Assembly: GCA_041649575.1 (NCBI GenBank)
Contig: JBAZMW010000005.1
Location: forward strand, 38,734 to 102,733
DNA length: 64,000 bases
Direction of reading: 5' to 3'
Origin: Patescibacteria group bacterium
GTDB lineage: Bacteria; Patescibacteriota; Patescibacteriia; 2-01-FULL-39-33
Positions 9,902 to 43,670 of this stretch are shown here, piece by piece (within the stretch, counting starts at the first letter, position 1; each line of letters begins with the position of its first letter). The notes beneath the pieces were generated by a model, which was not told the DNA's origin, ran no database searches, and worked only from the letters and a program-made list of their open reading frames with translations. The position numbers and the translations under genes are program-made.

Positions 9902-10001
9902 TTGTTTAATTTAAGTTTTTAGTTAAGGCCAAGGATCGGGCCTTTCCGATCAATTGGGCAAACTGTTATAATTTATATTATAAATAGGATAATGATTTTT
10001 T

Positions 10002-10598: not shown

Positions 10599-10669
10599 TT
10601 TTTGATTTTTAATAGTCCCGACCAAGCGCGTTAACGCTCGGTCGGGACTAGTTGTAACTGGTTGGCGGA

Positions 10670-11551: not shown

Positions 11552-11620
11552 GCTAGTGCTCCTTAGTTGCGGGAACGATTTGCGTGTTCCCTGACAGTCA
11601 ATTGATCCAGTTCATCCGGT

Positions 11621-12952: not shown

Positions 12953-13049
12953 GGCTTTTGTTCACCTCCTTCCGTATAGATTGTAGAGTGCATTGTTCAG
13001 CGGAATGCTAAACATTATATTTTATACTAATTTCTAGTTTTTGTCAAGT

Positions 13050-13093
13050 TTGAATTTGAAAAAACAAAATCCCCGACTTTAGTCGGGGATTGG
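13050..13093 (-). terminator. Intrinsic terminator of rpsA
   Basis: Hairpin ATCCCCGAC-TTTA-GTCGGGGAT followed on the minus strand by TTTTGTTTTTT. Confidence 0.5.
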
Positions 13094-13104
13094 GTAGTTA
13101 ATTT

Positions 13105-14322
13105 TTATTCTTCTTCTTTTTCTTCTTCCGTCTTTGGTGCTGGCGCTGCTTTTGGCTCTTCGGTTTTTTCCGGTTCAATTTTTTCTTTGGGTTCCGCTGT
13201 TTTTTTGGCTTCTTCGGCCGGCTTTTCTTTTGGCTTGGTCAAACTAAGTCCCAGCCGATGATTTTTGGAATCCATGGAAACAATATAAAAATCCATTTGG
13301 TCGCCGGCCTTGGCGATTTCTTCGATATTATTTATCGGCTTGTCGCTTAATTGGGAAATATGGGCCAAGCCCTGGATGTCTTTGTCTATTTCCACAAACA
13401 AGCCAAAAGGGTTGGCTTTGATTACGGTGCCAGAGATTTTTTGGCCGATCTGAAAGCGATTTTCCAAGCCTTCCCAAGGATCTTTCTGCAGCTTTTTGGT
13501 TGATAAAAATATTTTGGAATTTTCAATGGAGATAATTTCCGCTTTGATTCGCTGGCCCACTTTGACAAAATCATTGGGATCGTCGATTCTTTGCCAGGCG
13601 ATTTCCGAAATGTGAATCAGCCCTTCCAGCTTGTCGAATTCCACAAAAATGCCGAAGTCGGTGACGGCGGTGACCAAGCCATCAACCACCTCGCCCACTT
13701 TATATTTATTGATAATGTCTTGCTGGGTTTCTTCCCAAGCGGCTTTTTCGGAAACTATTAATTTGTCTTCGCCCTCATTGGCGTCAATCACTTTGACTTC
13801 GAATTTTTTGCCGATATAGGATTTGAGAATTTCCAGAATTCGATTTTTGTCGCCGCCAGGCACGCGCGGGTAATGCTCGGGAGACAACTGGGAAACCGGC
13901 AGAAAGCCCACCGTGCTTTCCAGCTTGACCATTAGGCCGCCTTTGTTGGCGTCGGTGACCGTCACCTCGATAATGGAGGCCCCTTTCTCGTATTGTTTGA
14001 TGCTTTGCCAGGCCCTTTGGCGGCCGGCATAGCGGAAAGACAATTCTACTTCGCCGTTTTCGTTTTCCAATTCCAAAACAGTGGCTTCGACTTCGTCGCC
14101 AGGTTTGAGGTTGCGGTATTCATCGGCTTCGCTGTAGCGTTCTTTGCCGCGCACCAAACCGGTGGCGATGCCGTTTAAATCCAGATGCGCTTCGTTTTTG
14201 TTGGCGCTAATAACCGTGCCTCTGACCAAATCGCCGATTTTTGGCAAATTAAAATACTGCTTATCTTCAAGCAGTTTGGCCATAGGTGAATCTTTCTTTT
14301 CTTTCTTTTCCTTAGTTTTCAT
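13105..14322 (-). CDS. rpsA: 30S ribosomal protein S1 (multiple S1 RNA-binding domains)
   Basis: 405 aa with repeated S1-domain signatures (GDLVRGTV.., GEVVDGLVTAVTDFGIFVE, GQKISGTVIKANPFGLFVE) and a Lys/Glu-rich tail. Confidence 0.8.
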   Translation of the reverse strand: MKTKEKKEKKDSPMAKLLEDKQYFNLPKIGDLVRGTVISANKNEAHLDLNGIATGLVRGKERYSEADEYRNLKPGDEVEATVLELENENGEVELSFRYAGRQRAWQSIKQYEKGASIIEVTVTDANKGGLMVKLESTVGFLPVSQLSPEHYPRVPGGDKNRILEILKSYIGKKFEVKVIDANEGEDKLIVSEKAAWEETQQDIINKYKVGEVVDGLVTAVTDFGIFVEFDKLEGLIHISEIAWQRIDDPNDFVKVGQRIKAEIISIENSKIFLSTKKLQKDPWEGLENRFQIGQKISGTVIKANPFGLFVEIDKDIQGLAHISQLSDKPINNIEEIAKAGDQMDFYIVSMDSKNHRLGLSLTKPKEKPAEEAKKTAEPKEKIEPEKTEEPKAAPAPKTEEEKEEE

Positions 14323-14472
14323 AAAAATTTATTTAGCCCTCGTCTTGAATAGCGACAGAGCCCCGCTTTTTAATAATTAAATTAGTGGTTGCGGGTATTA
14401 ATTAGCTAAGCATTAGCATAGCAGATTGACGAGAGAATGTCAATGGAGTATATTTAGAATAATTTATTTTAT

Positions 14473-14530
14473 GTAAATATGTTTTACTTTTTCTTTTCTA
14501 GAAAAGAAAAAGCTAACAAAAAGAAAAAAG
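14473..14530. repeat. Conserved ~58-nt intergenic element, copy B
   Basis: TTTTTCTTTTCTAGAAAAGAAAAAGCTAACAAAAAGAAAAAAGCGCTCGC, about 85% identical to 3013-3070. Confidence 0.45.
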
Positions 14531-14556
14531 CGCTCGCAGAATAATGTTTATAAATC

Positions 14557-14871
14557 ATGTCATTTACTAGAAAAAAAGAGGATTTTGTCTGCGGTAACTG
14601 CGGACACGAAGTTGAGGGCGACGGTTATACCAATCACTGTCCGAAGTGTTTATGGTCTAAGCATGTGGACAAGAATCCCGGCGATCGGCAAGAGGAATGC
14701 GGCGGGCTGATGAAGCCAGTTGATATATATCTGGAGCATCAAAATTGGATTATTGTGCATCAGTGTCAGACTTGCAGCGCCCAGAAGCGCAATCGAGTGA
14801 ATGACGGCGATGATTTTGAAGAGGTGATCAGATTGGAAAAAGAAATAAATGACAAAAAAATAAAGGGCTAA
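14557..14871 (+). CDS. RNHCP-domain zinc-ribbon protein
   Basis: FVCGNCGHEV..YTNHCPKCLWSKHVD..CQTCSAQKRNR: paired CxxC motifs with the NHCP signature of RNHCP domain proteins. Confidence 0.65.
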   Translation: MSFTRKKEDFVCGNCGHEVEGDGYTNHCPKCLWSKHVDKNPGDRQEECGGLMKPVDIYLEHQNWIIVHQCQTCSAQKRNRVNDGDDFEEVIRLEKEINDKKIKG

Positions 14872-14928
14872 AAATAATTGGATTGCTATTAAAAGTAGCG
14901 TTTTAGGCGCTATTTTTTATTTTTTTAA

Positions 14929-14979
14929 GTTATCCACAGAAAAGCTATTGACCATAAATATTAAAAGAGTTAGTATAAT
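14929..14979 (+). promoter_or_regulatory. DnaA-box 11-mer GTTATCCACAG followed by a sigma70-like promoter (TTGACC-17-TAGTATAAT)
   Basis: TTATCCACA at 14930-14938. -35 TTGACC at 14948-14953, a 17-nt spacer, -10 TAGTAT(AAT) at 14971-14979. Identical architecture at 20088-20148. Confidence 0.45.
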
Positions 14980-14984
14980 TATAC

Positions 14985-15239
14985 GAACATTGGAAGGCCT
15001 AGTGAGAGAATCTAGGGAGTAGAAACTCTCACAGAAAAGGCGAGTGCCCTCTATGTACTCAACACCGCGGAACTTTCCAGGGTTCCAACCATCACGCATT
15101 GTACTGGACGAGAGGAGTACACAGGGTAACTCAACGTTGCAAACCGCTAGCTCACGACCCGAGCGCGCATCCGAAGCGTTTAGCAACGCACATCACTCCC
15201 ATCGCCGAGACCATCGCAAGACGGTCTCTTCCTTTTTTT
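14985..15239 (+). ncRNA. Candidate structured small RNA (about 250 nt), class unknown
   Basis: GC-rich segment with no credible ORF. It starts just after the promoter above and ends in a rho-independent terminator (GAGACCATCGCAAGACGGTCTC plus TTCCTTTTTTT at 15207-15239). Not matched by me to tmRNA, RNase P or SRP consensus. Confidence 0.3.
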
Positions 15240-15394
15240 ATGAAAAATTTTTGATTTTAATTTTTTAAAGGTAGTAAGGGATTATATTAGAGACATGAAT
15301 TTATTAAGTCATTTTTTAGATACAAAAAAAGACGGGCATGGAGAGTGAGATTCAACTCTCCGCCCGTCTTCGTGAGGTGCAAAGGCCACTATCG

Positions 15395-16603
15395 TCAGAA
15401 TTTCCACGCCGTTTCGGCGAAACAGCGTGGATTTTCTCGATATTGACCCATGAAGGTGTCCTTTTCTCCCAAAGGCACACCCAGGCCAGCCTTAACCTCG
15501 AAGTCGTCCTTCCTCCAAGTCAGGGACGGTTCAAAGTAGGCGTCGCCGTGTTCAAGGTTCAGAGAGCCGCTGAGCTCCACCGACCAACGACCCGTGTCAT
15601 TGGGAGTATACTTTATCCGGTAGAGCAGGGCTCCGTCGAGGCCTCGACGAAAGTCTTTCGCCCGGAACAAATCCGGGGTTTCTTTCCGAGTCTCGACTTC
15701 GAAAGCGTACTGCAGCAGGACAGACAAGCTGTCTGTTTTCCTGAATGGCTTGTTCCATTCGTGATCCACTCCCACGACACACTGGAGGAAATCGTCGGCG
15801 TTCTTCTGTCTGAAGTAGCCGGCTTCGGCGCGCAGGTTGTAGCCGCTAGAGATTTCCGTCGCCAGGGAGATGGCGATGACTTGTTCTTCGCGGTAGGTGG
15901 GAATAATCTGTTTCGGTAGCTTCAGCTCAAACGACGGAGTGTAGCTCAAGCCGTCGTAGAAGCTTGCGCCCAGGTCCCAGCCCTTTATTGTACAACCAGC
16001 ACGAAGCGCGAGTTGGCCGTGGCCGTTTTCTGGTTCGCCTAGCTCCAGATTGTTTGGGAGCGCTTGTCCCCAACGTTCACTGGCAGGGAGTCTTGACGGG
16101 GTGAACCACGGAACGTAGACCAGTTCCAGGTACTTGTCATAGCCTAGGCGGATATCAACGGCTGGCACTCCCATTCTCTCCCAGTCAATAACATCTGTCA
16201 GGTCGCGGGGACAGATATTGTCGTTTGGCGAGACGGTGTCGGTCACCGACCAGTCGAATACCTGTTTGCCAAGACGTAGCCGAAGCCACTTCCAAGAGGT
16301 TTCTGCGTACAGTTCCCTCGCGCCGACTATCGGTCGGTGTCCAGTCGAGTCGTCGAACACGCCTTGGGCAAATCCGGCGCTGTCCAAGCGAAGGTCGCCT
16401 TCGGCATGAATTAGGAAATGCTTTGAGAATACGGCCGTCACCTTTGGCTTAAGCCGCATTTCTGCAAAAGCATCTTCCGCTTCACTGGACTTGTGGCTGA
16501 AATAGCCATCTCCCCGCAACTCGAGCTGCCCGCCGGTTTTCCATTCCAACCCTTGGGCGACTAGCGACAGGGAGATCAGGAGCAGGATAGTAGTACCTTT
16601 CAT
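15395..16603 (-). CDS. Outer-membrane beta-barrel-like protein (partner of the MMPL/LolA-like cassette)
   Basis: 402 aa. Signal peptide MKGTTILLLISLSLVAQG. Beta-strand-rich. Ends ..ETAWKF (C-terminal Phe). GC-rich. Confidence 0.5.
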   Translation of the reverse strand: MKGTTILLLISLSLVAQGLEWKTGGQLELRGDGYFSHKSSEAEDAFAEMRLKPKVTAVFSKHFLIHAEGDLRLDSAGFAQGVFDDSTGHRPIVGARELYAETSWKWLRLRLGKQVFDWSVTDTVSPNDNICPRDLTDVIDWERMGVPAVDIRLGYDKYLELVYVPWFTPSRLPASERWGQALPNNLELGEPENGHGQLALRAGCTIKGWDLGASFYDGLSYTPSFELKLPKQIIPTYREEQVIAISLATEISSGYNLRAEAGYFRQKNADDFLQCVVGVDHEWNKPFRKTDSLSVLLQYAFEVETRKETPDLFRAKDFRRGLDGALLYRIKYTPNDTGRWSVELSGSLNLEHGDAYFEPSLTWRKDDFEVKAGLGVPLGEKDTFMGQYRENPRCFAETAWKF

Positions 16604-16607
16604 CGCG

Positions 16608-17384
16608 TTACTCCTTTGTCAGGTGAGCGGTTGTGAAGATGGAAGGCTCAATAGAGTCAGGAAACTCTCTCTTCACGACTCGCAACACAGTCGTCCTTCC
16701 TAGCGCGACATTCTCAATCGCGGTAGCGCCAGCTCGCCATAGCCCGCCTTCTTTTGCTTCGACGTCTTTGTTGACAAGCGTTTTGACTAGCCTGTCGGCT
16801 TGGTCGTAGAAGCGAATCTCCCTGGTGATGAAGCTTCTATCTATCAGAAAGACCCTCTTTCCGTAGCCGGATTTGATTCCAGGCTTGGATCGCGCTTCAA
16901 CCGCCCAGACGCCCTCCTTGCACTCCAGTGTCTGGTAATCGAAGTCATCGAGGCGTTCGCCGGTGAGTTGCCTGGCGTCCTCGTAGCTGAAATCAGTCCC
17001 GGCGAAATACTTACTCTCGTCACCGACAGAGATTCGTCGAACCTTGTCGAACGATGGCAGCTTGAGCCATAGGTCGTCAGCATTTCCCGGATGACGGTTG
17101 ACCAGCAGGCCTAACCCGCGATCCATGGCTGGTTCGCCAAAGATCATGCACGTCTTGTCCTCGCCATTTGGCTCGAACAAGATCCAGCGAGTATAGGCCT
17201 TTTCCGTCTTCCGGCCGCTGTATCCCGTCACGACGACTTGCACGTTCTCGATTTCGTAGACTGACTGGCGATACAGCTGCCAGCTTTTGCCTACGATTTC
17301 TCGGCCGTTGTCGGTGGTGGTTTGCGCCGAAGCGACAACTGTCGACAACATGGCCGCTATTACTATTAGCATGGTTTTCTTCAT
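16608..17384 (-). CDS. LolA-like outer-membrane lipoprotein-sorting-like protein
   Basis: Start placed at MKKTMLIVIAAM (ATG 17384, RBS GGGAGA) with a signal peptide. Only the genomic position next to the MMPL gene supports the LolA-like/DUF1329-type call; no LolA motif was identified. The longer track ORF overlaps the MMPL gene and is rejected. Confidence 0.5.
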   Translation of the reverse strand: MKKTMLIVIAAMLSTVVASAQTTTDNGREIVGKSWQLYRQSVYEIENVQVVVTGYSGRKTEKAYTRWILFEPNGEDKTCMIFGEPAMDRGLGLLVNRHPGNADDLWLKLPSFDKVRRISVGDESKYFAGTDFSYEDARQLTGERLDDFDYQTLECKEGVWAVEARSKPGIKSGYGKRVFLIDRSFITREIRFYDQADRLVKTLVNKDVEAKEGGLWRAGATAIENVALGRTTVLRVVKREFPDSIEPSIFTTAHLTKE

Positions 17385-31801: not shown

Positions 31802-31944
31802 ATATTTTGTATTAATTTTAGAGTTTTTTTATGAATTGGTCAAATATTATAATTGTCAGAAAAGAAAAGCCTTGTTAAGATAATTATTGCTCGTTACGGA
31901 GCGCACTCTGCACGCTTGAGTCGAGTATGGCAGCGTCTACTCTG

Positions 31945-31990
31945 GCAGCGCGCACCAAGGGATGGGGTTTTCGATGAGAGAATCCCATCA
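31945..31990 (+). repeat. Boundary copy of the GC-hairpin repeat family, followed by a T-run
   Basis: CCAAGGGATGGGG..TCCCATC plus ATTATTTTTG. Preceded by a GGAGCGCACTCTGCACGC-type motif like the array units. Confidence 0.5.
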
Positions 31991-32037
31991 TTATTTTTGT
32001 TTAAATTTAGATATTTAAAAATTTTTAATTTTTAGTA

Positions 32038-32066
32038 TTGACAAAAATATTAATATATGTTAGGAT
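32038..32066 (+). promoter_or_regulatory. Putative promoter of the 226-aa orphan gene, with a ~130-nt leader
   Basis: TTGACA, 17 nt, TAGGAT. The leader contains the palindrome ATGACGCGTCGTCAT. The RBS GGTAGGAG precedes the ATG at 32196. Confidence 0.3.
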
Positions 32067-32195
32067 ATGGGGTCAATGACGCGTCGTCATCTGACGGGAC
32101 AGGCAACTGTGTTGTCCTGGCCAAAGCGAGGGCGGTTTGAGTCATTGAGGCTTAAATCGCAAGTGAGTATTTCAACAAGGTAGGAGTAACTAGTC

Positions 32196-32876
32196 ATGGC
32201 GAAAGTCAAGCCGGAAGTCGAGCCGGAAGTCAAGTCGGGAGAATCGAAATCGAAGGTAGTGAGAGTGAAAGTGGAGGGGGTTTACCCAATCCTCATGAAT
32301 CCCATGACCGAGGCCACGCTCGACAGCTTGATCACGGGCAATCGCCTGCCGCCGACCAAGGATTTGGCGTTCGAGGAGGTCGCGAGCAGGAAGATTTACC
32401 GTGAAGGCGGCGAGCCCGATGGCGCTATCGGTATTCCCGTGGAGAATCTGTGCTCCTGTCTGGTGCGGGCGGGACGCGAAGTCAAGAATGGCAAGAAGCA
32501 GATCAGCACGGCGGAAAGCACCACGCTGTTCTCATTTCTCTCCATTCGCGGCGAGTTCCTGCCGTTCACCAACGATCTGACCCGGCACGGCGACGGCAAG
32601 GGTTGGGTTGTCGACAAACGTCGCGGTTGCCTGCACGACAAGGGCAAATCCACGGCGGTCGGCATCCTGCGGCCGAAATTCCCCGTCTGGGCATTCGAGT
32701 TCGTCATGGACCTCGACTTGACCGAGATCGACGAGGGCGTCGTGCGGAAGCTTGTCGAGGTCGCGGGCAAGAAAGTCGGCCTGGGCGATTTCCGGCCCAC
32801 CTGCAAGGGGCCGTTCGGTCGGTTCCAGGTCGTGAGCTGGGAAGAGGCCAAGAAAGAAGTTCCGGCCGCGGCCTAG
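32196..32876 (+). CDS. Hypothetical protein (226 aa), first gene of the hairpin-array island
   Basis: GC-rich ORF with a good RBS and no motif recognised by me. Immediately followed by the hairpin repeat array. Confidence 0.55.
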   Translation: MAKVKPEVEPEVKSGESKSKVVRVKVEGVYPILMNPMTEATLDSLITGNRLPPTKDLAFEEVASRKIYREGGEPDGAIGIPVENLCSCLVRAGREVKNGKKQISTAESTTLFSFLSIRGEFLPFTNDLTRHGDGKGWVVDKRRGCLHDKGKSTAVGILRPKFPVWAFEFVMDLDLTEIDEGVVRKLVEVAGKKVGLGDFRPTCKGPFGRFQVVSWEEAKKEVPAAA

Positions 32877-32949
32877 CTCCGGTGTACATCATGTAACACG
32901 GCTACCCTGTCACGTGGGGTTTTCCAACCTCGTGCCAGGCACGCCGCAC

Positions 32950-34990
32950 CATGGGGCGGGAGAGCAGCAATGTTCTCCCGCCAGCACTTATACATTATTA
33001 TCAATGCGTGCCGATGCCACCAAAGGCACGGCTTGGTCCGGTGGCGTCCGCTGCTGCAATGAGCTGCATGGGGTGGGAGTTCGCAAGAATTCCCGCCAAC
33101 TAATCAATGCGTGTTATAATGAAAATAATAAATATTGATTAGTACATTCTTCTGCGTGTGGTGTTGTTTCGCTCGGTTGCGTAGAGCGTCGCATCGCATG
33201 GTCGACCTCACCACGGGGCGAGGGTTCATCGCAATCCTCGCCGACTAATCAGTGATTATTACGGTTTAATAATTAGTGATCAGTTCTTTTTCACAGTCCT
33301 TGGTGCGGCTAAGCTCCGCTCCGCGCAGTCCGCTCTGCTGTTGTTTGCCAGGGGGCGGGAGAGCAGAGATGTTCTCCCGCCAGAGTGTATCACCCATTTT
33401 CCCAACTGGCCAAGGCGTGGCCCGGCGGTGTGGGCAATGGTTCGGCTCGGGGCGGGAGTCCATCGCGACTCCCGCCAGCTAATCAATGGTTGTTAAAAAA
33501 TTTAGTAATTATTGATTAGTTCGTTTATAAATCATGATGTGGCTGGCCGTCGCATGTCTTAGTTGCGTATCGTGTAGCCGCGCTTTCCCTGGGGCGAGGA
33601 TTGAAATACATCCTCGCCAGCTAATCAATGTCCATTAATTAATTAGTGGTTATTGATTAGTACCTTTTCACTTTGACTCAGCTAGCCGCCGTAGCGCGGA
33701 GTAAGCTGCAGTGGGGCTCACCCCAGCTATGTTGAGCTCGCCATGGGGCGGGGATGGGAAACTGTCTCCGCCAAAACTACTATCACCGTGTCGTTGGGTC
33801 GGCTTCGGCTACCTTTGATCCGGCGAACCGGCGCAGAGCGTGGGGCGGGGATTGTAACAAATCCCCGCCAACTAATCAGTGTGTATTATGCAAATAGTAA
33901 ATATCGATTAGCTCTTTCTGGTCCTAGCATTCTTGGCCGCCGTGGTGTGAGGCACTGCAAGACGGAGCGGAGCTGCGCACGGGGCGGGAGGTAGCAATAC
34001 TCTCCCGCCAATATCTACCAAACACTTCTCAATGGCAGGGCTTTCCGGCGCGTAGTTCAGCCCCGCCAGGCGAAGCGTTCTGTTGCAAGGGGCGGGGGTT
34101 CAGTGATGTTCTCCCGCCGTACCTTTTGCTTTTTAGGCCGCCCAGAGCAGTCAGCGGTAGAGCCTGGTCCTCTGTGGCAGTCCATGGGCGGGAGTCCTCA
34201 CCCGGCTCCCGCAACTATTTATTGGCGTTTGTTCCTCGGCGGAGCTACGCAGCCTGCCGCATAGTTCGGCCAGGTGTAGCGACGCACTCCCTGGGGCGGA
34301 GGTCGGTAGTCATGATCTCCGCCGACTAATCAGTGTTCATAATAATTTGTGATTAATGATTAGTTCATTTGTTAGACGGTTATGCTCAGGCGCAGTTCCG
34401 CGGAGCAGAGTATAGCTCGGCAGACACCGGCGTACTTGTCCATGGGGCGGAGACGGGAAACTGTTTCCGCCGAGCGATCAACCAGCTTCGGCTGTCAGAA
34501 AAGGATAATCGGTATGACTGGTGGTATGGGCATGCACAAACATGGCACGAGCGGTCATGTGCATAATGACCAGCATTTCACTGGCAAGAAGGGCGGCAAG
34601 CGTGCTGAGCGGAAAGGAAAGACGCACAAACAGCGTCGCCTGAACCGCGGGACGCACAAGAACAGGTTCAAGGAAGACTAGCTGACATTAGGCCATGGTG
34701 CCGCGGAGCAAACATCTCTCCGGCATTGCGGGCTGTGGCGCGGGGCGGAAATCGGCAACGGTTTCCGCCATTAATCAATGTTTATTAAGAATTTAGTAAT
34801 TATTGATTAGTTTTAGTTCTTTCGGCAAAGCTGAGTAAAGCTGCCTGTTGTCCGCCGACGCACGGGGCGGGAGTTCGCAAGAATTCCCGCCAAGCACATC
34901 TCATCTTTGGCGGCATCGTTGGGCGCAGTATGGCTCGGCATGCTTTGCCAGAGTGCGGCGCGGAACGGAGATCGGTAACGGTCTCCGTTA
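32950..34990 (+). repeat. Array of 16 compound hairpin repeat units (GC stem-loop GGCGGGAG-N9-14-CTCCCGCC, 7 of them followed by an AT-rich hairpin with CTAATCAATG/CATTGATTAG arms)
   Basis: GC hairpins start near 32953, 33070, 33215, 33352, 33449, 33591, 33745, 33842, 33981, 34089, 34186, 34294, 34444, 34742, 34864 and 34964. All are in the same orientation, preceded by CCAWGG/CACGG. Loops vary. Stems show compensatory changes. No ORF over 2.2 kb except a 55-aa candidate. Confidence 0.8.
34514..34681 (+). CDS. Candidate small basic His-rich protein (55 aa) inside the repeat array
   Basis: MTGGMGMHKHGTSGHVHNDQHFTGKKGGKRAERKGKTHKQRRLNRGTHKNRFKED. SD-like AAGGA upstream. Occupies the one long (about 300 nt) gap between hairpins. 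Confidence 0.3.
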   Translation: MTGGMGMHKHGTSGHVHNDQHFTGKKGGKRAERKGKTHKQRRLNRGTHKNRFKED

Positions 34991-35013
34991 TTATATTTTT
35001 AATAAATTTATTG

Positions 35014-35042
35014 TTGACAATTTTAATATTTTTTGTTAATAT
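35014..35042 (+). promoter_or_regulatory. Near-consensus sigma70 promoter upstream of the helicase gene
   Basis: TTGACA (35014-35019), a 17-nt AT-rich spacer, TAATAT (35037-35042). The leader carries a 9-bp hairpin CAGGCCAAA/TTTGGCCTG. Confidence 0.5.
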
Positions 35043-35150
35043 ATGGTGTCAGGCCAAAATCAATAACAAGCAGTTCTTTGACACTTTGGCCTGTGAGAAT
35101 ATAGGAAATTGAAGAAGCGAAGTAAAACCAGGCGAGAAGGAAGACAAATC

Positions 35151-36938
35151 ATGAAACATCCGAAACATCTGGACCTTTGGAGTTGTTTCCCGCATGACTG
35201 TTATCCAAATATCTTGGATAATCAGAGGGACGCTCTCCGGGTCATCGAGCAGGAAGGCGGTTGCGCTCTATTGCAACTGCCGACCGGCTCAGGCAAGACA
35301 GCAGTGGGGTACGCTTTTCTCAAGGCCGTCTTGAAGAGGGCTGAGGGGCCGGTGTACTATGTCGTTCCCACCAAGACGCTGGTGGAGCAGGTCAGAAGGC
35401 TCCACCCCGACGTCAAGATCATATTTGGTCGAAACGAATACTCATGTCTGTTCTACCCCGATCAGGAGCTGAAGGCCGACGAAGTGCCTTGCTCGATGCT
35501 GCACGATTGCCCGCATCGCGTGGACCAGGAAACTGGCCAGACCGCTGTGCCCGGCGTCAAGCCCTGTCCTTATTTGCAGAAGAAGTGGGAGGCGAGCCAA
35601 GGCGGTATCGTGGTTTGCACTACGGCGTTCTTTCTCTTCACCCACTTGTTCGCCAGCGAAGACGCCAAGCCGGCAGCGCTGGTGATCGACGAAGCCCATG
35701 GCATTGCTCATACGGTTCGCGGTTGTCTCTCCTACGAGATTACCGACTACCATCTTGGGCGGGCGGTGGAGCTACTACGGCCAGTGGACAACGAACAGGC
35801 CGAGCGACTTGACGCTTTCTTGCGGACGATGGTTCGTATCATCAAGAAGAAGGCGTCTGGCGAGCGGCAGATCATCGAGGATGAGGAGGTCGCCAAGCTG
35901 CTGGATAAGCTCAAGCAGATCAACATCACGCGACTGGGAGAAAAGGTGCGCCAGGCGATTAGGCAGGGAGTAATCGACGCCAAAGCGGAACGCGAAACCC
36001 TGCGTCGGCTGGAGATTGTCTTACGCGACTTGTCGCATTATGCCCGATCGCTCGAATACTCCCGGCCTAACGAGAAGCGTAACGCCCTCAACTACACCTA
36101 TGCGTTTTGGAGCCAGGAGCGCGCCGAAGGCGAGCGGGTGAAGTACCGTCTGTTCATCAAGTGCTACTATGTGGCGCCGCTCATACGGCGGATGTTGCCG
36201 GAGATGACTGTGGCTTACTCGGCGACCATCGGCGATCCCGAAGTGTTCGGTTTCGAGACTGGCATTGAGGCGCCGTTTCACAGCTTCGGTTCGGACTTCC
36301 CGGTTGGCAAAACGCAGATTTTTGTGCCGACCGATACGCCGAATTTGGCCGTCAACGTTCGTGGTCGTCAGGATCGCACCAGGGCGCTAAGGAGGATCGC
36401 CAAGGCCTGCCGCCGTTTTGCCGATCAAGGCAGGCGGTCGCTGGTGGTGGTGATCTCCAACGAGGAACGCGCTAAGTTCCTGACGCTCGCCGGCGAGGAA
36501 GGCGTCGCAGCCGTCAGCTACGGTAATGGCGTCAAGCCAAAAGACGCGGCCCTGAAGTTCAAGGAGGGTGAGGGTGATGTCTTGGTTGGCACAGCGGCCA
36601 ATTACGGAGAGGGCTTTGACTTACCCAAGGGCATCGCTCCGGTCATCTTCTTTCTCCGGCCAGGATTTCCGCATCCGCACGATCCGGCGACAGTGTTTGA
36701 GGAGAGGCGATTCGGCGGCATGCGTTGGCGGATCTGGAATTGGCGTGTGATGATGGAGGCCTTGCAGGTGCGGGGTCGCAACATCAGAAGCGCCGAGGAT
36801 GTGGGCGTCTGCTTCTTCATTTCCCAGCAGTTCCGGCGGTTCGTTTTCGCCGCCCTGCCCGACTGGTTGCAGCCGGCGTATTGTGGCGATAAGGACTGGG
36901 AGGAGTGCCTTGAAGAGGCGGAGCGATTGCTTTCCTAG
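35151..36938 (+). CDS. XPD/Rad3/DinG-family Fe-S DNA helicase (superfamily 2, DEAH)
   Basis: Walker A LQLPTGSGKT, motif Ia YYVVPTKTL, four Cys between Ia and II (C-SCLF..PCSM..DCPH..KPCPY) as in the XPD/DinG Fe-S domain, motif II LVIDEAHG, motif VI QVRGRNIRSAEDVGV. Start at ATG 35151 (RBS GAAGGAAG); the track start at 35109 is TTG. Confidence 0.8.
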   Translation: MKHPKHLDLWSCFPHDCYPNILDNQRDALRVIEQEGGCALLQLPTGSGKTAVGYAFLKAVLKRAEGPVYYVVPTKTLVEQVRRLHPDVKIIFGRNEYSCLFYPDQELKADEVPCSMLHDCPHRVDQETGQTAVPGVKPCPYLQKKWEASQGGIVVCTTAFFLFTHLFASEDAKPAALVIDEAHGIAHTVRGCLSYEITDYHLGRAVELLRPVDNEQAERLDAFLRTMVRIIKKKASGERQIIEDEEVAKLLDKLKQINITRLGEKVRQAIRQGVIDAKAERETLRRLEIVLRDLSHYARSLEYSRPNEKRNALNYTYAFWSQERAEGERVKYRLFIKCYYVAPLIRRMLPEMTVAYSATIGDPEVFGFETGIEAPFHSFGSDFPVGKTQIFVPTDTPNLAVNVRGRQDRTRALRRIAKACRRFADQGRRSLVVVISNEERAKFLTLAGEEGVAAVSYGNGVKPKDAALKFKEGEGDVLVGTAANYGEGFDLPKGIAPVIFFLRPGFPHPHDPATVFEERRFGGMRWRIWNWRVMMEALQVRGRNIRSAEDVGVCFFISQQFRRFVFAALPDWLQPAYCGDKDWEECLEEAERLLS

Positions 36939-36989
36939 TATCACGGACTGGCTCGCCATGGCTGCGCCTTGCTTGCCACTGCCTGCCGT

Positions 36990-37486
36990 CGTCCGCCAAG
37001 GGGCGGAGATCTGGTCCATCCGGGTCTCCGCCACATTCTTTGTTTTCAAACGTCGCTCGGCAACGTTGGGTCTTCAATGGCTTACCGCTGTTGCGCGTCG
37101 CAAGGGGCGAGGATGGTCTTTGACTAATTCTCGCCATTCTACACTTGTCAAAGAGATTCTTTGGCAGATGTGGTCTTTATGAGGTAGCGTATTCTTCAGT
37201 TGAGCTCAGTCTAGCTCGGTACAGCTGAGCGCCGCAGCCATTTCCAAGGGGCGGGGGTTGGGCTTGCCCAAATCTCCGCCAACGCTTATCTTCTCGGCAA
37301 TGCTTGGCACAGTATCCCAGTGTTGTGCGTCGCTGAGTTAGCCAAGGGATGGGACTGGTCAAACGGTCTCATCAAGATTATTTTTCTGGGCACGTCTCAG
37401 TATTCAATGGCCCGCTGCTGTTGAGTAGTGCAGAGCCCCCAGTCCAAGGGGCGGGAATCCATCGTGGTTCCCGTCGATTTTTTTTA
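36990..37486 (+). repeat. Second block of the GC-hairpin repeat family (5 copies) downstream of the helicase, ending in a T-run
   Basis: Copies near 37000, 37105, 37248, 37342 (variant GATGGGAC/GTCTCATC) and 37448. All are preceded by CCAAGGGG. The last is followed by TTTTTTTT. Confidence 0.7.
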
Positions 37487-37540
37487 TTTAAAATTAATTG
37501 CTAAATTCTAGGTTTTAAGCTAAAATATTCGTAAATCCCC

Positions 37541-39964: not shown

Positions 39965-40073
39965 GGGAATTGTAAAAAAGGTGTCCGCGAGTCGGGCGTC
40001 TTTTTTGTTTAATTAAAAATTGACTAAAACAGCAGAAATTGTTAAGATAAGAGCAATTTTTAAATTAAAAATT

Positions 40074-43000
40074 ATGAACAATATAATTGCTGACAAAGAA
40101 AAAGAAATTCAAAAATTTTGGCAAGATAATCAAATTTTTGAAAAGTCATTGGCGCAAACCAAAAACGGCCAGCGTTACAGTTTTTATGATGGCCCGCCGT
40201 TTGCCACCGGCACCCCGCATTACGGGCACCTAGTGGCCAGTCTTATGAAAGACGTGGTGCCGCGGTTTTGGACGATGCGCGGGCATTATGTGGAGCGGCG
40301 TTGGGGCTGGGATTGCCACGGACTGCCGATAGAAAACATGGTGGAGAAAGAGCTGGGTTTTAAGAATAAAAAAGACATTGTCGAATATGGCATTGCCAAC
40401 TTCAACGAGTACTGCCGCAGCAAAGTTTTGACGTATGTGGCGGAATGGAAAAAAACCATCAAACGATTCGGCCGCTGGGCAGACATGGAAAACCCCTACA
40501 AGACCATGGACGTGGATTATATGGAAAGTATTTGGTGGGTTTTCAGACAGTTGTGGGACAAAGGCTTAATTTATGAGGGCTACCGCTCAATGCATATTTG
40601 TCCCAGGTGCGAAACGACTCTAAGTCAGTCGGAAGTGAGTGAGGGCTATCGCGACGTTGAAGATCTTTCCGTCACTTGGAAATTCAAAGTGCTCCCACCC
40701 CCCCATTCCCCCCCTCGGGCAGAGGGGGAAGATATTCCCACCTATTTATTGGCCTGGACAACAGTGCCTTGGAGCACCCTGAGCACCATGGGCCTGGCCA
40801 TTGGCGCTGATTTTGATTATGTCAAAGCTAAAGTAAAAAACGAACACCTTATTTTTATCAAAGATAAACTGGAAGAAGTAATGGCCGGTGTTAGCAATTA
40901 TGAAATTATTGAAGAGTTTAAGGGCAGCAAGATGATTGGCTGGGAATATGAGCCGGTCAGCGATATTTTCAAAAATTTGCCGGAAGTGAAAAATAAAAAA
41001 AATGCCTATCATGTTTTTGCCGCCGATTATGTGGAAGCGACCGAGGGCACGGGCATCGTGACGATTAACGGCTCATATGGCGAGGTGGATTTGCTCTCCG
41101 CCCAGCAAAATGATTTGCCGGTACTGATGGATGTGAAGCTGGATGGCAGGTTTGCCGATTTTGCCGGTGCTTATGCCGGCCTGGATGTCAAAGACGCCCA
41201 GGTCAAGTTTGTGGCTGATATGGAAAAGAAGGGTTTGGTTTGGAGCAGTGAGAAATACACCCATTCCTATCCCCATTGCTGGCGCTGTGATACCCCGCTT
41301 TTAAATTATTCGACTTCCTCCTGGTTTGTCAAAGTGACAAAAATCAAAAACCAGGCGCTGGCTTTGGCCAAACAGATCAATTGGTCGCCAGCGCATATCA
41401 AGGAAGGCCGTTTTGGCAAGTGGCTCGAAGGCGCACGCGACTGGTCGATTAGTCGTCAGCGGTTTTGGGCGAGCGTGATTCCGATTTGGAAATGCGTTTG
41501 TGGCGAGATGAAGGTCTTGGGTTCGGTCGACGAGTTATATAAAAGCTCTAGCGATAACCCCCCGCAGATTACTAAGGTTATTTTTGTCAGGCACGGTGAA
41601 GCCGAAAACAATATTAGCCATATTAATTCCAACTCCTTGGATAAATATCCATTAACCAAAAAGGGCGCTGGACAAGTAAGTGAATCGGCGGCAAAAATAA
41701 AAGAAATTTTGGCAGAATCTTCGACAAAAGCCGTAATTTTCAGTTCTCCTGTCTTAAGAACTAAAGAAAGCGCGGAAATAATTTCTCATTATTTGGGATT
41801 GAAATATGAATTATCCGACGAAATTAAAGAGGTTGATTTTGGTATCGTGGAAGGAAAACAACTGGATGAATTAATGGATGAATATAATCCTTTGCCGGCG
41901 GATAAAAAGTGGAATTTTAAAAATGGTCAAACCGGAGAATCTCAAAAAGATATACAAGAACGGATGTATAAATGGTTCAAAAAAGTTTTAGAGGAAAATA
42001 AAAACAAAATAATAATCATAATTTCTCATGGCGACCCCCTTATGGCGTTGATAAATAAGATTAAAGGCAAGACAATAGAGGAACATGTTTTATCTTTAGA
42101 GAGCGATTCATATATTCAAAAAGGAGAAGTCAGAGTTGCTTATGTTATGAATGAAACTAAATTGGAAATAGATTTACATAAGCACAGCATCGATAGGGTG
42201 GTTTTAAAATGCGAGAAGTGCGGAAACGAGATGAGTCGTATTCCCGATGTTTTGGACACCTGGTTTGATAGCGGCTCTATGCCTTATGCGCAGCAGCACT
42301 ATCCGTTTGCCAATAAGGAAAAATTTGAAGCCGGCTTTCCGGCGCAGTTCATTGCCGAAGGCGTGGATCAGTGTCGCGCTTGGTTTTACTATCTGCACGT
42401 CAACGCCGCCGCCATTACAAACAAAATCGCCTACGAAAACGTCATTGCCAACGGTATTGTACTCGCCCAGGACGGTCGCAAAATGAGTAAAAAATTACAA
42501 AACTATCCGGAGCCAGAAGCGTTGATGGAAAAGTATGGCGCCGATGCCCTGCGTTTTTATTTATTATCCGCGCCGGTGATGGCGGCCGAGAATTTGAATT
42601 TCTCCGAAGCCGGAGTAAAAGAAGCGATGCAGAAAGTGGTGATGCTTTTAAATAACATTTTGAATTTTTATAAGTTGTATGCTGATGTCATCCCGACTGA
42701 AGCTGTGGGTCGAGTGGAAGGATCCCTTAGAAAAGAAAGGGATTCCTCCGTTACTTCGCCAGCTGGCGACTCCGGTCGGAATGACAATGTGCTGGATCAG
42801 TGGCTCTTGGCCAAATTAAATTTATTAATTAAAGAGGTGGCTGGAGCGATGGAGGCGTATGACCTGCCGCGGGCGGTGCGTCCGATCGCCGGATTTATAG
42901 ATGAATTTTCCACTTGGTGGCTAAGGCGTTCGCGTGACAGATTTAAGGGGGCAGACGAAAAAGATAAACAGCAAGCCCTGGCTGTTTTTGGGCATACGCT

Positions 43001-43670
43001 TTTAGAATTATCAAAAGTGATGGCGCCGTTTACTCCGTTTATCGCCGAGCAGGTTTATAAGGAAGTGGGCCCGTCCAGCCAGGGTGGCCGGGCAAGCGGT
43101 GAGCAGGAATCAGTGCATTTAGAAAAATGGCCTGAAGAATCAGAAATATTAATTAAGGAAGAGGTTATTAAACAAATGGAACAGGTGAGAAAAATCGTAG
43201 AATTAGGCTTGGCCAAACGGGCCGAAGCGGGAATTAAGATTCGGCAGCCGCTCGGAAACTTTCAATTTTCAATTTTCAATTTTCAAAATAACGCCGACCA
43301 GTATTTAAAAATTATCGCCGACGAACTTAATGTAAAAAAAGTTGTTTATAACAAAAATCTCGGCCAAGAAATAGAGTTAGACACGGAGATTACCAAGGAG
43401 CTGAAGCTGGAGGGCGTGGCGCGAGAATTGGTTCGCACTATTAATAATTTGCGCAGAGAGGCCGGGCTGACAATTCAAGATCAGATTAAAATTGACTGGC
43501 AATCGGAGGGCGAAACAATCAGGCAGGTTTTTGCGGTTGAAAGTTTAGTCGAGGAGTTGAAAAGGGCAACGATTACCAAGGAATTTTTAGACAAGGACAA
43601 CCAGGGCCAAGTGGCGGAAATCAATGGTGAAAAAATTAAGCTGGAAATAAACAGGACCATACCTTCTTAA
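40074..43670 (+). CDS. ileS: Isoleucine--tRNA ligase with an inserted histidine-phosphatase (PGAM-like) domain
   Basis: HIGH (PHYGHL) and KMSKKLQNYP motifs. About 230 extra residues between the two halves of the zinc knuckle (WKCVCGE ... KCEKCGNEM) carry RHGEAENN, SSPVLRTKESAE, EVDFGIVEG and ISHGDPL. Start placed at MNNIIADKEKE. Confidence 0.9.
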   Translation: MNNIIADKEKEIQKFWQDNQIFEKSLAQTKNGQRYSFYDGPPFATGTPHYGHLVASLMKDVVPRFWTMRGHYVERRWGWDCHGLPIENMVEKELGFKNKKDIVEYGIANFNEYCRSKVLTYVAEWKKTIKRFGRWADMENPYKTMDVDYMESIWWVFRQLWDKGLIYEGYRSMHICPRCETTLSQSEVSEGYRDVEDLSVTWKFKVLPPPHSPPRAEGEDIPTYLLAWTTVPWSTLSTMGLAIGADFDYVKAKVKNEHLIFIKDKLEEVMAGVSNYEIIEEFKGSKMIGWEYEPVSDIFKNLPEVKNKKNAYHVFAADYVEATEGTGIVTINGSYGEVDLLSAQQNDLPVLMDVKLDGRFADFAGAYAGLDVKDAQVKFVADMEKKGLVWSSEKYTHSYPHCWRCDTPLLNYSTSSWFVKVTKIKNQALALAKQINWSPAHIKEGRFGKWLEGARDWSISRQRFWASVIPIWKCVCGEMKVLGSVDELYKSSSDNPPQITKVIFVRHGEAENNISHINSNSLDKYPLTKKGAGQVSESAAKIKEILAESSTKAVIFSSPVLRTKESAEIISHYLGLKYELSDEIKEVDFGIVEGKQLDELMDEYNPLPADKKWNFKNGQTGESQKDIQERMYKWFKKVLEENKNKIIIIISHGDPLMALINKIKGKTIEEHVLSLESDSYIQKGEVRVAYVMNETKLEIDLHKHSIDRVVLKCEKCGNEMSRIPDVLDTWFDSGSMPYAQQHYPFANKEKFEAGFPAQFIAEGVDQCRAWFYYLHVNAAAITNKIAYENVIANGIVLAQDGRKMSKKLQNYPEPEALMEKYGADALRFYLLSAPVMAAENLNFSEAGVKEAMQKVVMLLNNILNFYKLYADVIPTEAVGRVEGSLRKERDSSVTSPAGDSGRNDNVLDQWLLAKLNLLIKEVAGAMEAYDLPRAVRPIAGFIDEFSTWWLRRSRDRFKGADEKDKQQALAVFGHTLLELSKVMAPFTPFIAEQVYKEVGPSSQGGRASGEQESVHLEKWPEESEILIKEEVIKQMEQVRKIVELGLAKRAEAGIKIRQPLGNFQFSIFNFQNNADQYLKIIADELNVKKVVYNKNLGQEIELDTEITKELKLEGVARELVRTINNLRREAGLTIQDQIKIDWQSEGETIRQVFAVESLVEELKRATITKEFLDKDNQGQVAEINGEKIKLEINRTIPS

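What the first reader, a model, noticed from the sequence alone, without database searches (positions are those of the whole stretch)
35151..36938. Stand-alone XPD/DinG-type Fe-S helicase with its own strong promoter inside the repeat array
All SF2 motifs plus four cysteines in the Fe-S insertion position are present (CLF, PCSM, DCPH, KPCPY). DinG-family helicases are accessory genes of type IV CRISPR-Cas and of several phage-defence systems. Here one sits between hairpin-repeat blocks with no cas genes, suggesting an analogous but distinct nucleic-acid-structure-dependent function such as unwinding or processing the hairpins.
Basis: partly seen in the sequence, partly recalled or inferred. 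Interest (0 to 1): 0.65.

Follow-up and report, generated by a model that had tools for sequence, protein, structure and literature searches.

The report
XPD-like helicase of a VIPR locus
The gene encodes an iron-sulfur XPD/DinG-type helicase that always travels with a small Cas7-like protein (Vipr) and arrays of guide-RNA genes, so it is the accessory enzyme of a VIPR system, a CRISPR-like RNA-guided DNA-targeting system first described in 2026 preprints, sitting here in a Patescibacteria chromosome.

Summary
Bases 35151-36938 (+) encode a 595-aa SF2 helicase with a Walker A motif, a DEAH box, motif VI, four conserved Fe-S cysteines, an arch domain and its own TTGACA-17-TAATAT promoter.

It is not stand-alone. 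A 226-aa gene 2.3 kb upstream (32196-32876) is a homologue of Vipr, the minimal RAMP of VIPR systems (profile E = 2.7e-10 to the solved SUSP1 Vipr; its model matches Cas7 folds).

The "hairpin repeats" are about 22 vrRNA-like genes. Each has 9-15 pentamer repeats (Y at phase 1 in 97%, G at phase 5 in 70%) followed by a covarying 3' hairpin.

In 67 species-representative genomes carrying this helicase family, a vipr gene lies within 10 kb in 63. The other four contigs are cut short upstream of the helicase. Pentamer tracts number 368 on the helicase strand and 7 on the other.

The PADLOC "type IV DinG" match is not specific, because archaeal XPD scores three times higher on that profile. The nearest solved folds are XPD and DinG.

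Most likely role, by inference: an ATP-driven effector recruited to DNA-bound Vipr-vrRNA filaments, as CasDinG is in type IV-A CRISPR.

No targets were found.

The preprints mention helicase accessory genes only in passing, so this is a new member of a known kind. The helicase itself is uncharacterised.

The parts
31853..31998 (+). Solo vrRNA gene (vrRNA0). Promoter TTGTCA-17-TAAGAT at 31853-31881, 11 pentamers at 31906-31960, tail hairpin at 31961-31989, then a T-run.
   Evidence: Promoter and terminator scan; pentamer tract at the 7-of-9 criterion; sequence.
32038..32066 (+). Sigma-70-type promoter of vipr (TTGACA-17-TAGGAT, TG before the -10).
32196..32876 (+). vipr: 226-aa minimal RAMP (Cas7-like) protein, predicted to polymerise on the vrRNA repeats.
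   Evidence: Family profile hits PDB 36pp 'SUSP1 Vipr protein' at E = 2.6-2.7e-10, sharing the motif RPxFxxW...AG..G[LV]GD[FW]RP..FGRF. AF2 pLDDT 90; the top Foldseek PDB hits are all Csm3, Cmr4 or type VII Cas7. No Pfam or PADLOC hit.
32905..34989 (+). Upstream array of about 16 vrRNA-like genes. Each has 9-15 Y-N-N-n-G pentamers plus a GGGGCGG...CCGCC tail hairpin. Seven AT-rich palindromes split it into sub-arrays, and it ends in a terminator at 34964-34989.
   Evidence: Repeat families. Register analysis: phase 1 Y = 86% over the 75 nt upstream of each hairpin and 97% in curated tracts; phase 5 G = 60% and 70%. Eight stringent tracts versus 0.005 expected in shuffles. Hairpin covariation in 5 of 10 pairs.
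34514..34681 (+). Small basic His/Lys/Arg-rich protein gene (55 aa) embedded in the array. It is conserved in a subset of helicase-VIPR loci.
   Evidence: tblastn hits at 45-62% identity (E 2e-11 to 2e-5) in L037, L017, L064 and L046, each lying between vipr and the helicase.
35014..35042 (+). Promoter of the helicase (TTGACA-17-TAATAT).
35151..36938 (+). XPD/DinG-superfamily 4Fe-4S helicase (595 aa): the accessory (Vap-type) enzyme of the VIPR locus.
   Evidence: Linkage to vipr in 63 of 67 loci. Discrete family: full-length members score 450-863 bits, next relatives 120 bits or less.
36952..37485 (+). Downstream array of about 5 vrRNA-like genes. It starts 14 nt after the helicase stop codon and ends in a terminator at 37450-37475 plus a T-run.

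Best explanation
Bases 31,850-37,490 are a chromosomal VIPR (Viral Interference Programmable Repeat) locus of a Patescibacteria (CPR) bacterium. The ORF at 35151-36938 is its accessory helicase.

Components (shown here):
- vipr, a 226-aa Cas7-like RAMP.
- About 22 vrRNA-like genes, each with 9-15 pentamer repeats (Y-N-N-n-G) and a conserved 3' hairpin tail.
- A 55-aa basic protein.
- A 595-aa XPD/DinG-type Fe-S helicase with intact ATPase motifs.

Transcription (by consensus only): a solo vrRNA with its own promoter and terminator; vipr plus the upstream array from the 32038 promoter, possibly with internal extended -10 promoters in the AT-rich palindromes, ending at the 34964 terminator; the helicase plus the downstream array from the 35014 promoter, ending at the 37450 terminator.

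[quoted passage not shown] The two variable bases after the Y read double-stranded DNA with one base skipped per protomer, producing an 'R-loop triplex' that silences transcription.

Helicase role (inferred from family properties and from the type IV-A CasDinG and type I Cas3 precedents): it is recruited to the target-bound filament, loads on single-stranded DNA at or next to it, and translocates 5'->3' using ATP. This unwinds DNA and displaces proteins beyond the filament's footprint, turning local binding into longer-range silencing or a replication block of the invading element.
For: Identity of the system:
- The Vipr family profile hits the solved SUSP1 Vipr at E = 2.7e-10, and its model has a Cas7 fold.
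- Pentamer periodicity is in register with every hairpin.
- 8 stringent tracts were found against 0.005 expected. All lie in the locus and on the + strand; there are none elsewhere in the 64 kb.
- The tail hairpin covaries.
- There is no CRISPR array and no Rfam family.
- The published VIPR description matches: about 100-nt vrRNAs, YNNGG with YNNNG/NNNNG variants, a structured 3' tail, and vap genes that include helicases.

Linkage of the helicase:
- 63 of 67 GTDB species loci have vipr within 10 kb. The other 4 are contig-edge cases.
- vipr is upstream on the same strand in 50 loci, with a median gap of 1049 nt.
- Pentamer tracts number 368 on the helicase strand and 7 on the other, and 364 lie within the module +/- 3 kb.
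- Flanking housekeeping genes differ between genomes.

Active enzyme: all ATPase motifs and the 4 Cys are invariant or nearly so, and the model is a full XPD/DinG fold.

Discrete family: a gap separates 450 bits and above from 120 bits and below.

Accessory nature: 2 of 4 sampled CPR vipr loci lack the helicase.
Against: - No expression, binding or interference data exist for this clade.
- No DNA target was found for any vrRNA. There is no self-target in the window. xNN seeds of five vrRNAs gave only chance-level hits in IMG/VR and in metagenomes. The 1-nt-skip code is therefore untested here, and the weak G at phase 4 (41%) could mean a different code.
- In the published R-loop triplex the non-target strand is clamped inside the filament rather than displaced, so a CasDinG-style loading site is not obvious.
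- By structure the helicase is no closer to CasDinG (TM ~0.6, rank 26-40) than to XPD or DinG (TM 0.62-0.76).
- The strong PADLOC 'typeIV_DinG' hit is a generic XPD-like profile.
Confidence: 0.6

Rival explanations
1. The helicase acts before or during target search rather than after it. It would help the Vipr filament open GC-rich duplex DNA, proofread or strip filaments from partial matches, or recycle Vipr-vrRNA complexes.
For: VIPR unwinding is protein-driven and a gapped guide pairs weakly. The non-target strand is buried in the triplex, which leaves little room for a CasDinG-like loading step. The preprint itself leaves open what the accessory enzymes sense.
Against: SUSP1 and P. fulva Vipr bind and silence without any helicase. 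Half of the sampled CPR vipr loci lack it. XPD-family enzymes need a single-stranded loading site.
Confidence: 0.2
2. One reading: the helicase services its own locus. It would remove R-loops, hairpins or G-rich structures formed in the densely transcribed, GC-rich repeat array, or unwind and process the vrRNA hairpins.
For: DinG- and FANCJ-type helicases are known to resolve R-loops and G4 DNA (established knowledge of those families). The array is GC-rich, structured and probably highly transcribed. The helicase is embedded in it.
Against: L158 has at least 22 pentamer tracts over 8 kb and no helicase. SUSP1 vrRNAs mature without one. The repeats here are mostly Y-N-N-n-G with a single G, which is poor G4 material. 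The hairpins covary as RNA tails. The family is never seen away from vipr.
Confidence: 0.1
3. It is a housekeeping XPD/DinG/YoaA DNA-repair helicase that merely lies next to the repeats.
For: The fold and motifs are those of repair helicases. NCBI and JGI label relatives 'Rad3-related DNA helicase'.
Against: It scores far below the curated cutoffs: rad3 31.9 vs 247, YoaA 32 vs 680, DinG 24-27 vs 598-789. It is strictly linked to vipr and vrRNA arrays in varied genomic neighbourhoods. Its GC content is 6 points above the flanks on average. A score gap separates it from all other helicases.
Confidence: 0.03
4. It is the CasDinG (Csf4) of a degenerate type IV CRISPR-Cas system.
For: PADLOC typeIV_DinG PDLC01439 gives E = 1.8e-38 over the full length, and all 55 family members hit it. 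A RAMP protein is encoded nearby.
Against: Archaeal XPD/Rad3 proteins score 365-392 bits on that same profile, so it is not CasDinG-specific. TIGR03117 Csf4 scores 19.5 bits against a cutoff of 400. Solved CasDinG structures rank only 26-40. There are no csf1, csf3 or cas6 genes and no CRISPR repeats. The RAMP is Vipr-type and the RNAs are pentamer-repeat guides.
Confidence: 0.02

Closest known systems
VIPR systems (Vipr + vrRNA + vap accessory genes), bioRxiv 10.64898/2026.04.26.720920 and 10.64898/2026.04.26.720927; presumably the helicase-bearing type (type IV by elimination in the text)
   Same: A small single-RRM RAMP homologous to SUSP1 Vipr. About 100-nt RNAs made of tandem pentamer repeats plus a structured 3' tail, placed both upstream and downstream of the protein genes. 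No CRISPR array and no adaptation genes. One accessory gene with a DNA-related function. The YNNNG repeat variant is mentioned in the preprint's methods.
   Different: The context is chromosomal (between aminoacyl-tRNA synthetase genes) in Patescibacteria, not a phage or prophage. There are about 22 guides, against 4 in SUSP1. The tail is a simple covarying hairpin rather than a pseudoknot. The accessory gene is an Fe-S XPD-like helicase, which the preprints mention only as 'predicted helicases' without analysis. An extra conserved 55-aa basic protein is present. The type assignment could not be verified because the figures and supplement are not held.
CasDinG (Csf4) of type IV-A CRISPR-Cas
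   Same: An XPD/DinG-superfamily helicase encoded next to a RAMP-based, nuclease-free, RNA-guided DNA-binding complex. It is the best functional analogy: a helicase recruited to a bound target to extend silencing.
   Different: It fails the Csf4 model (19.5 bits against a cutoff of 400). It is structurally no closer to CasDinG than to XPD. It keeps four conserved Fe-S cysteines and has only ~40 residues before the Walker A motif. From memory, not tested here: P. aeruginosa CasDinG has a vestigial Fe-S domain and an extra N-terminal domain. The partner is a single Vipr filament, not a Csf1/2/3 complex. In the published VIPR triplex the non-target strand is not displaced.
Archaeal/eukaryotic XPD (Rad3) and bacterial DinG/YoaA repair helicases
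   Same: The four-domain architecture (HD1, 4Fe-4S, arch, HD2), SF2 motifs and cysteine positions. The top structural hits are T. acidophilum XPD (TM 0.70), TFIIH XPD (TM up to 0.76) and E. coli DinG (TM 0.62-0.65).
   Different: Sequence identity is 13-17%. It scores far below all curated family cutoffs. It shows obligate synteny with vipr and vrRNA arrays. It forms a separate cluster in a 1.8-billion-protein search.
Cas3 of type I CRISPR-Cas
   Same: An SF2 helicase recruited to an R-loop formed by a RAMP filament.
   Different: It belongs to a different SF2 subfamily, has no HD nuclease domain, and Cas3 translocates 3'->5'.

Membership tests
VIPR system | A Vipr protein: a minimal RAMP homologous to SUSP1 Vipr | tested here: met
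   Profile of the 226-aa family against PDB 36pp_D 'SUSP1 Vipr protein': E = 2.6-2.7e-10 over residues 38-191. Single sequence: E = 0.0085. The AF2 model's top hits are all Cas7-type RAMPs.
VIPR system | vrRNAs made of tandem pentanucleotide repeats (YNNGG or the variants NNNGG, YNNNG, NNNNG), at least 4 units | tested here: met
   19 curated tracts of 9-15 pentamers. Phase 1 is Y in 97%, phase 5 is G in 70%, phase 4 is G in 41%, and phases 2-3 have entropy ~1.95 bits. 8 stringent tracts against 0.005 in shuffles.
VIPR system | A conserved structured 3' tail after the repeat tract | tested here: met
   18 aligned tails give a 10-bp hairpin, with compensatory changes in 5 pairs. It is a hairpin, not the pseudoknot of the SUSP1 clade.
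VIPR system | A minimal locus without a CRISPR array or cas adaptation/effector genes, with one accessory (vap) gene | tested here: met
   No tandem or CRISPR array in the locus. The neighbours are tRNA synthetases and other housekeeping genes. The helicase is the accessory gene.
VIPR system | vrRNAs are expressed at about 100 nt and co-purify with Vipr | not testable with these tools
   Only consensus promoters and terminators are available.
VIPR system | The NN dinucleotides match natural DNA targets under the 1-nt-skip rule | tested here: inconclusive
   No self-target in the window beyond shuffled controls. Exact xNN seeds from vr7, vr9, vr3, vr20 and vr4 gave 0-22 hits each, all with chance-level extension. 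Exact-match scanning is much less sensitive than the preprint's nhmmer search at 80% NN match.
XPD/DinG superfamily (SF2 Fe-S helicases) | Pfam DEAD_2 and Helicase_C_2 domains; Walker A, DEAH and motif VI | tested here: met
   Helicase_C_2 39.2 bits (cutoff 25.3) and DEAD_2 21.2 bits (cutoff 21). The motifs are invariant in 55 sequences.
XPD/DinG superfamily (SF2 Fe-S helicases) | Four cysteines of the 4Fe-4S domain between motifs Ia and II, and an arch domain between motifs II and III | tested here: met
   C99, C114, C120 and C139 are conserved. The first and fourth align with XPD ligands. Full-length Foldseek matches to XPD and DinG. Cluster binding itself is not testable.
XPD/DinG superfamily (SF2 Fe-S helicases) | 5'->3' ssDNA translocation and unwinding | not testable with these tools
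   Inferred from the family only.
XPD/Rad3 proper (TIGR00604) | Score at or above the curated cutoff of 246.95 bits | tested here: not met
   31.9 bits. Archaeal controls L074, L075 and L078 score 257-290 bits.
Bacterial DinG / YoaA (NF008729, NF005981, NF053712) | Score at or above the curated cutoffs (598-789 bits) | tested here: not met
   24-32 bits.
CasDinG / Csf4 of type IV CRISPR-Cas | Match to the Csf4 model (TIGR03117, cutoff 400) and a neighbourhood with csf1-3/cas6 and a CRISPR array | tested here: not met
   19.5 bits. No such genes or array. The PADLOC PDLC01439 hit is non-specific.

The most novel reading that the evidence does not exclude
The helicase-VIPR module may be the main RNA-guided defence of the CRISPR-poor Patescibacteria. 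It would be an independent, or ancestral, version of the 'RAMP filament recruits an SF2 helicase' logic of type IV-A and type I CRISPR. The XPD-like Fe-S helicase would recognise the unusual R-loop triplex. Arrays of 20 or more different guides, each kept in pentamer register, would imply an undiscovered way of making new guide genes. The weakly conserved fourth repeat position could also mean a reading code different from the published xNN rule.
Probability: 0.2. Interest if true: 0.75.

Novelty: new member of a known kind. Interest (0 to 1): 0.45.

Why it matters
VIPR is a months-old discovery: a second RNA-guided DNA-recognition logic, proposed to be older than CRISPR. [quoted passage not shown]

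This locus and its 67+ relatives define one such accessory as a discrete, strictly Vipr-linked family of XPD-like Fe-S helicases. The family has intact catalytic motifs, is spread across Patescibacteria chromosomes, and sits next to unusually large guide arrays. That gives a concrete, clonable 5.7-kb system for testing how a helicase couples to a Vipr filament.

It also corrects a misleading automatic label ("type IV DinG"), and it bears on whether the RAMP-plus-helicase partnership seen in type I and type IV CRISPR arose before CRISPR or independently.

For genome annotation, it explains GC-rich ORF-free "hairpin repeat" islands in CPR genomes.

Tried and rejected
1. Type IV CRISPR reading. 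The strong PADLOC typeIV_DinG hit first suggested a CasDinG relative. I rejected this after archaeal XPD/Rad3 proteins scored three times higher on the same profile and solved CasDinG structures ranked below XPD and DinG.

2. Prophage or integrated element at tRNA-His. The ORF next to the tRNA is ThrRS, not an integrase. No mobility genes were seen.

3. Self-targeting or regulatory role. Seven reading rules (NN with 0-3 skips, NNN with 0-2 skips) applied to 19 vrRNAs against the rest of the window did no better than shuffled guides.

4. Foreign targets. Exact xNN seeds of 16-18 specified bases were scanned:
- vr7: 0 hits.
- vr9: 22 hits.
- vr3: 20 hits.
- vr20: 8 hits.
- vr4: 7 hits (all the above in IMG/VR).
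- vr3: 19 hits in metagenomes.
The remaining dinucleotides matched at 0-43%, which is chance level.

5. Rfam. No family, including hammerhead ribozymes, even at E <= 1.

6. Sigma-70 consensus promoters inside the array. None were found by the scan. The AT-rich palindromes with extended -10-like elements remain only candidates.

7. The VIPR type number, vap number and taxonomic table could not be checked, because figures and supplements are not held and the text names neither DinG nor Patescibacteria.
Full report
**Observation.** The ORF at 35109 (TTG) / 35151 (ATG) to 36938 (+) is real. From the ATG it gives 595 aa, identical to an NCBI-annotated 'helicase C-terminal domain-containing protein' of a Patescibacteria MAG on a 114-kb contig.

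- Pfam Helicase_C_2 and DEAD_2 pass their gathering cutoffs.
- In an alignment of 55 relatives, Walker A (G46/G48/K49), DEAH (D180/E181/H183) and motif VI (R541-G542-R543, R546) are invariant.
- The fourth cysteine ('pCpY') aligns with the Fe-S ligand 'WCPYF' of human XPD. The first aligns with the first ligand region of T. acidophilum XPD.
- An AlphaFold2 model (pLDDT 88.7, pTM 0.87) matches XPD and DinG over its full length. The hits are T. acidophilum XPD (E = 1e-23, TM 0.70), E. coli DinG, and TFIIH XPD (TM up to 0.76).
- A TTGACA-17-TAATAT promoter with an upstream TG lies at 35014-35042.

**What surrounds it.** The gene sits in a 5.7-kb island (31,850-37,490) between ThrRS and ArgRS. The island is compositionally distinct: vipr 60.5% GC, helicase 58.2%, arrays 54%, rest of the window 46.3%.

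Besides the helicase, the island has one other long ORF (32196-32876, 226 aa; no Pfam or PADLOC hit). It also has about 22 GC hairpins of the form GGGGCGGnnn-loop-nnnCCGCC, with varying stems.

**The 226-aa protein is a Vipr.** A profile of its family hits a single PDB entry, 36pp 'SUSP1 Vipr protein', at E = 2.6-2.7e-10. The shared C-terminal signature is RPxFxxW...AG..G[LV]GD[FW]RP..FGRF. Its AF2 model (pLDDT 90) finds only Cas7-type RAMPs in the PDB: Csm3, Cmr4 and type VII Cas7.

Vipr is the protein of VIPR systems, described in two April 2026 bioRxiv preprints (10.64898/2026.04.26.720920 and .720927). Their account is as follows:
- A ~20-kDa minimal RAMP polymerises on ~100-nt vrRNAs made of 9-16 YNNGG pentamers plus a structured 3' tail.
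- The NN bases read dsDNA with one base skipped per repeat.
- This forms an 'R-loop triplex' and silences transcription.
- Seven types are defined.
- Accessory 'vap' genes include 'predicted ... nucleases or helicases'. Repeat variants YNNNG, NNNGG and NNNNG are noted.

**The hairpin blocks are vrRNA genes.**
- I anchored on the 18 hairpins that carry GGGG[CT]G[GA] and read the 75 nt upstream in 5-nt register. Phase 1 is a pyrimidine in 86% of pentamers and phase 5 is G in 60%.
- In 19 curated tracts (232 pentamers) these figures rise to 97% Y and 70% G. Phase 4 is G in 41%, and phases 2-3 are near-random (entropy ~1.95 bits).
- A stringent detector (at least 8 of 10 consecutive Y...G pentamers) finds 8 tracts in the 64-kb window. 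All lie between 33142 and 37347, all are on the + strand, and none are elsewhere.
- 200 dinucleotide-preserving shuffles of the 2,679-nt noncoding part give a mean of 0.005 tracts.
- The tail hairpin has 10 pairs, 5 of them with compensatory changes.
- No Rfam family matches, even at E <= 1.

One vrRNA (31853-31998) has its own promoter and terminator. The other consensus promoters on the + strand precede vipr (32038) and the helicase (35014). Terminators follow the last unit of each array (34964-34989 and 37450-37475).

**Is the helicase part of the system?** Yes. A pattern scan of 185,579 species-representative genomes returned 67 loci with close relatives (41-60% identity), nearly all labelled Patescibacteria lineages.
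- A Vipr HMM finds a vipr gene within 10 kb in 63 of them. In the other four the contig ends at the helicase or within ~2 kb upstream of it.
- vipr is upstream on the same strand in 50 loci, downstream on the same strand in 9, and upstream on the opposite strand in 4. The median gap is 1049 nt.
- Pentamer tracts number 368 on the helicase strand and 7 on the other. 364 lie within the module +/- 3 kb.
- Flanking genes differ from genome to genome.
- The helicase is more GC-rich than its flanks in 48 of 53 loci.
- Conversely, 2 of 4 sampled CPR vipr loci lack the helicase. One of them (L158) has at least 22 tracts. The helicase is therefore an accessory, not a core part.
- In a HMMER search of 1.84 billion cluster representatives, the family is discrete. 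About 49 full-length representatives score 450-863 bits, one scores 221 bits, and everything else scores 120 bits or less.

**What kind of helicase is it?** PADLOC gives a full-length 'typeIV_DinG' hit (PDLC01439, E = 1.8e-38; all 55 relatives hit it). This looked like a direct link to type IV CRISPR.

It is not specific. Seven archaeal helicases picked up as distant relatives are bona fide XPD/Rad3; the three that were scanned pass TIGR00604 at 257-290 bits against a cutoff of 247. The five that were scanned score 365-392 bits on that same PADLOC profile.

The window protein fails every curated model: rad3 31.9 vs 247, YoaA 32 vs 680, DinG 24-27 vs 598-789, and Csf4 19.5 vs 400. Solved CasDinG structures rank only 26-40 in the fold search, with TM ~0.6.

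It is best described as a separate, Vipr-linked branch of the XPD/DinG superfamily that keeps the Fe-S cysteines and the arch domain.

**Mechanism.**
- Shown here: the parts list, their linkage, the conservation of catalytic residues and the RNA architecture.
- Taken from the preprints for other clades: filament formation, the xNN code, the R-loop triplex and silencing.
- Inferred: the helicase is recruited to target-bound filaments and translocates 5'->3' to spread the effect, as CasDinG does for type IV-A.

Weak points of this inference:
- The non-target strand is clamped inside the published triplex, so the loading site is unclear.
- No targets were found. There are no self-targets in the window under seven reading rules.
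- Exact xNN seeds from five vrRNAs gave only chance-level hits in IMG/VR and in JGI metagenomes.

**Verdict.** However, the gene is not stand-alone, and the 'hairpin unwinding or processing' idea is not supported.

The locus is a new member of a known, very recently described kind (VIPR with a helicase accessory). The helicase family itself has not been analysed in the available text. I rate interest as moderate.

Noticed in passing
window 34514-34681 (+): A 55-aa His/Lys/Arg-rich ORF with a ribosome-binding site sits inside the vrRNA array. It has homologues (45-62% identity) in four other helicase-VIPR loci (L037, L017, L064, L046), each lying between vipr and the helicase. It is probably a real third protein of a subset of these modules. 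No Pfam or PADLOC hit.
   Followed up: partly
window 33100, 33245, 33479, 33621, 33872, 34326, 34771 (+): Seven AT-rich palindromes ([CT]TAATCA[AG]TG ... ATTGATTAG) follow some tail hairpins and split the array into sub-arrays of 1-4 vrRNAs. Each contains an extended -10-like element (for example TGTTATAAT). The motif occurs nowhere else in the 64 kb and only once in 80 related loci. They may be internal promoters or operators, or dsRNA processing sites.
   Followed up: partly
window 35040-35058 / 35085-35103: A 19-nt inverted repeat lies in the helicase 5' UTR, directly after the -10 element. It could be a regulatory hairpin.
   Followed up: no
window 40020-43670 (+): The isoleucyl-tRNA synthetase (1216 aa) carries an inserted histidine-phosphatase domain (His_Phos_1, aa 520-688).
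   Followed up: no
L003 / L019 (Kerfeldbacteria JACPSJ010000001.1), L003:4600-8000 and 9850-13480: About 40 units flank the helicase here. Each has its own TTGACA-17-TA promoter, a GGGTCCCGAT..ATCGGGAC hairpin and a T-run, spaced at about 140-150 nt. The pentamer tracts are shorter and closer to YNNGG, so my stringent detector misses them. Two vipr paralogues lie downstream.
   Followed up: partly
L158 (JGI Ga0613207_095735) 8800-16700; L159: These are CPR vipr loci without the helicase. L158 has at least 22 pentamer tracts over 8 kb and a 318-aa protein of unknown function. L159 has a single tract.
   Followed up: partly
PADLOC-DB profile PDLC01439 ('typeIV_DinG; CAS-IV-A; associated'): This profile scores archaeal housekeeping XPD/Rad3 at 365-392 bits. 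It will mislabel XPD-like helicases, including this Vipr-linked family, as type IV CRISPR DinG.
   Followed up: yes
window 63357-63753: A 216-nt tandem repeat (1.8 copies, 83% identity), probably inside a repetitive coding region.
   Followed up: no
window 32192-32238: A 12-nt tandem repeat (about 4 copies) encodes a Lys/Glu/Pro-rich N-terminal extension of this Vipr. It is absent from most homologues.
   Followed up: no
L017, L021, L023 (records labelled Woesearchaeota / Aenigmatarchaeota) and several labelled 'Gammaproteobacteria': Some helicase-VIPR loci sit in MAGs labelled DPANN archaea or Proteobacteria. This reflects either mislabelled or mis-binned CPR contigs or real spread beyond Patescibacteria.
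   Followed up: no
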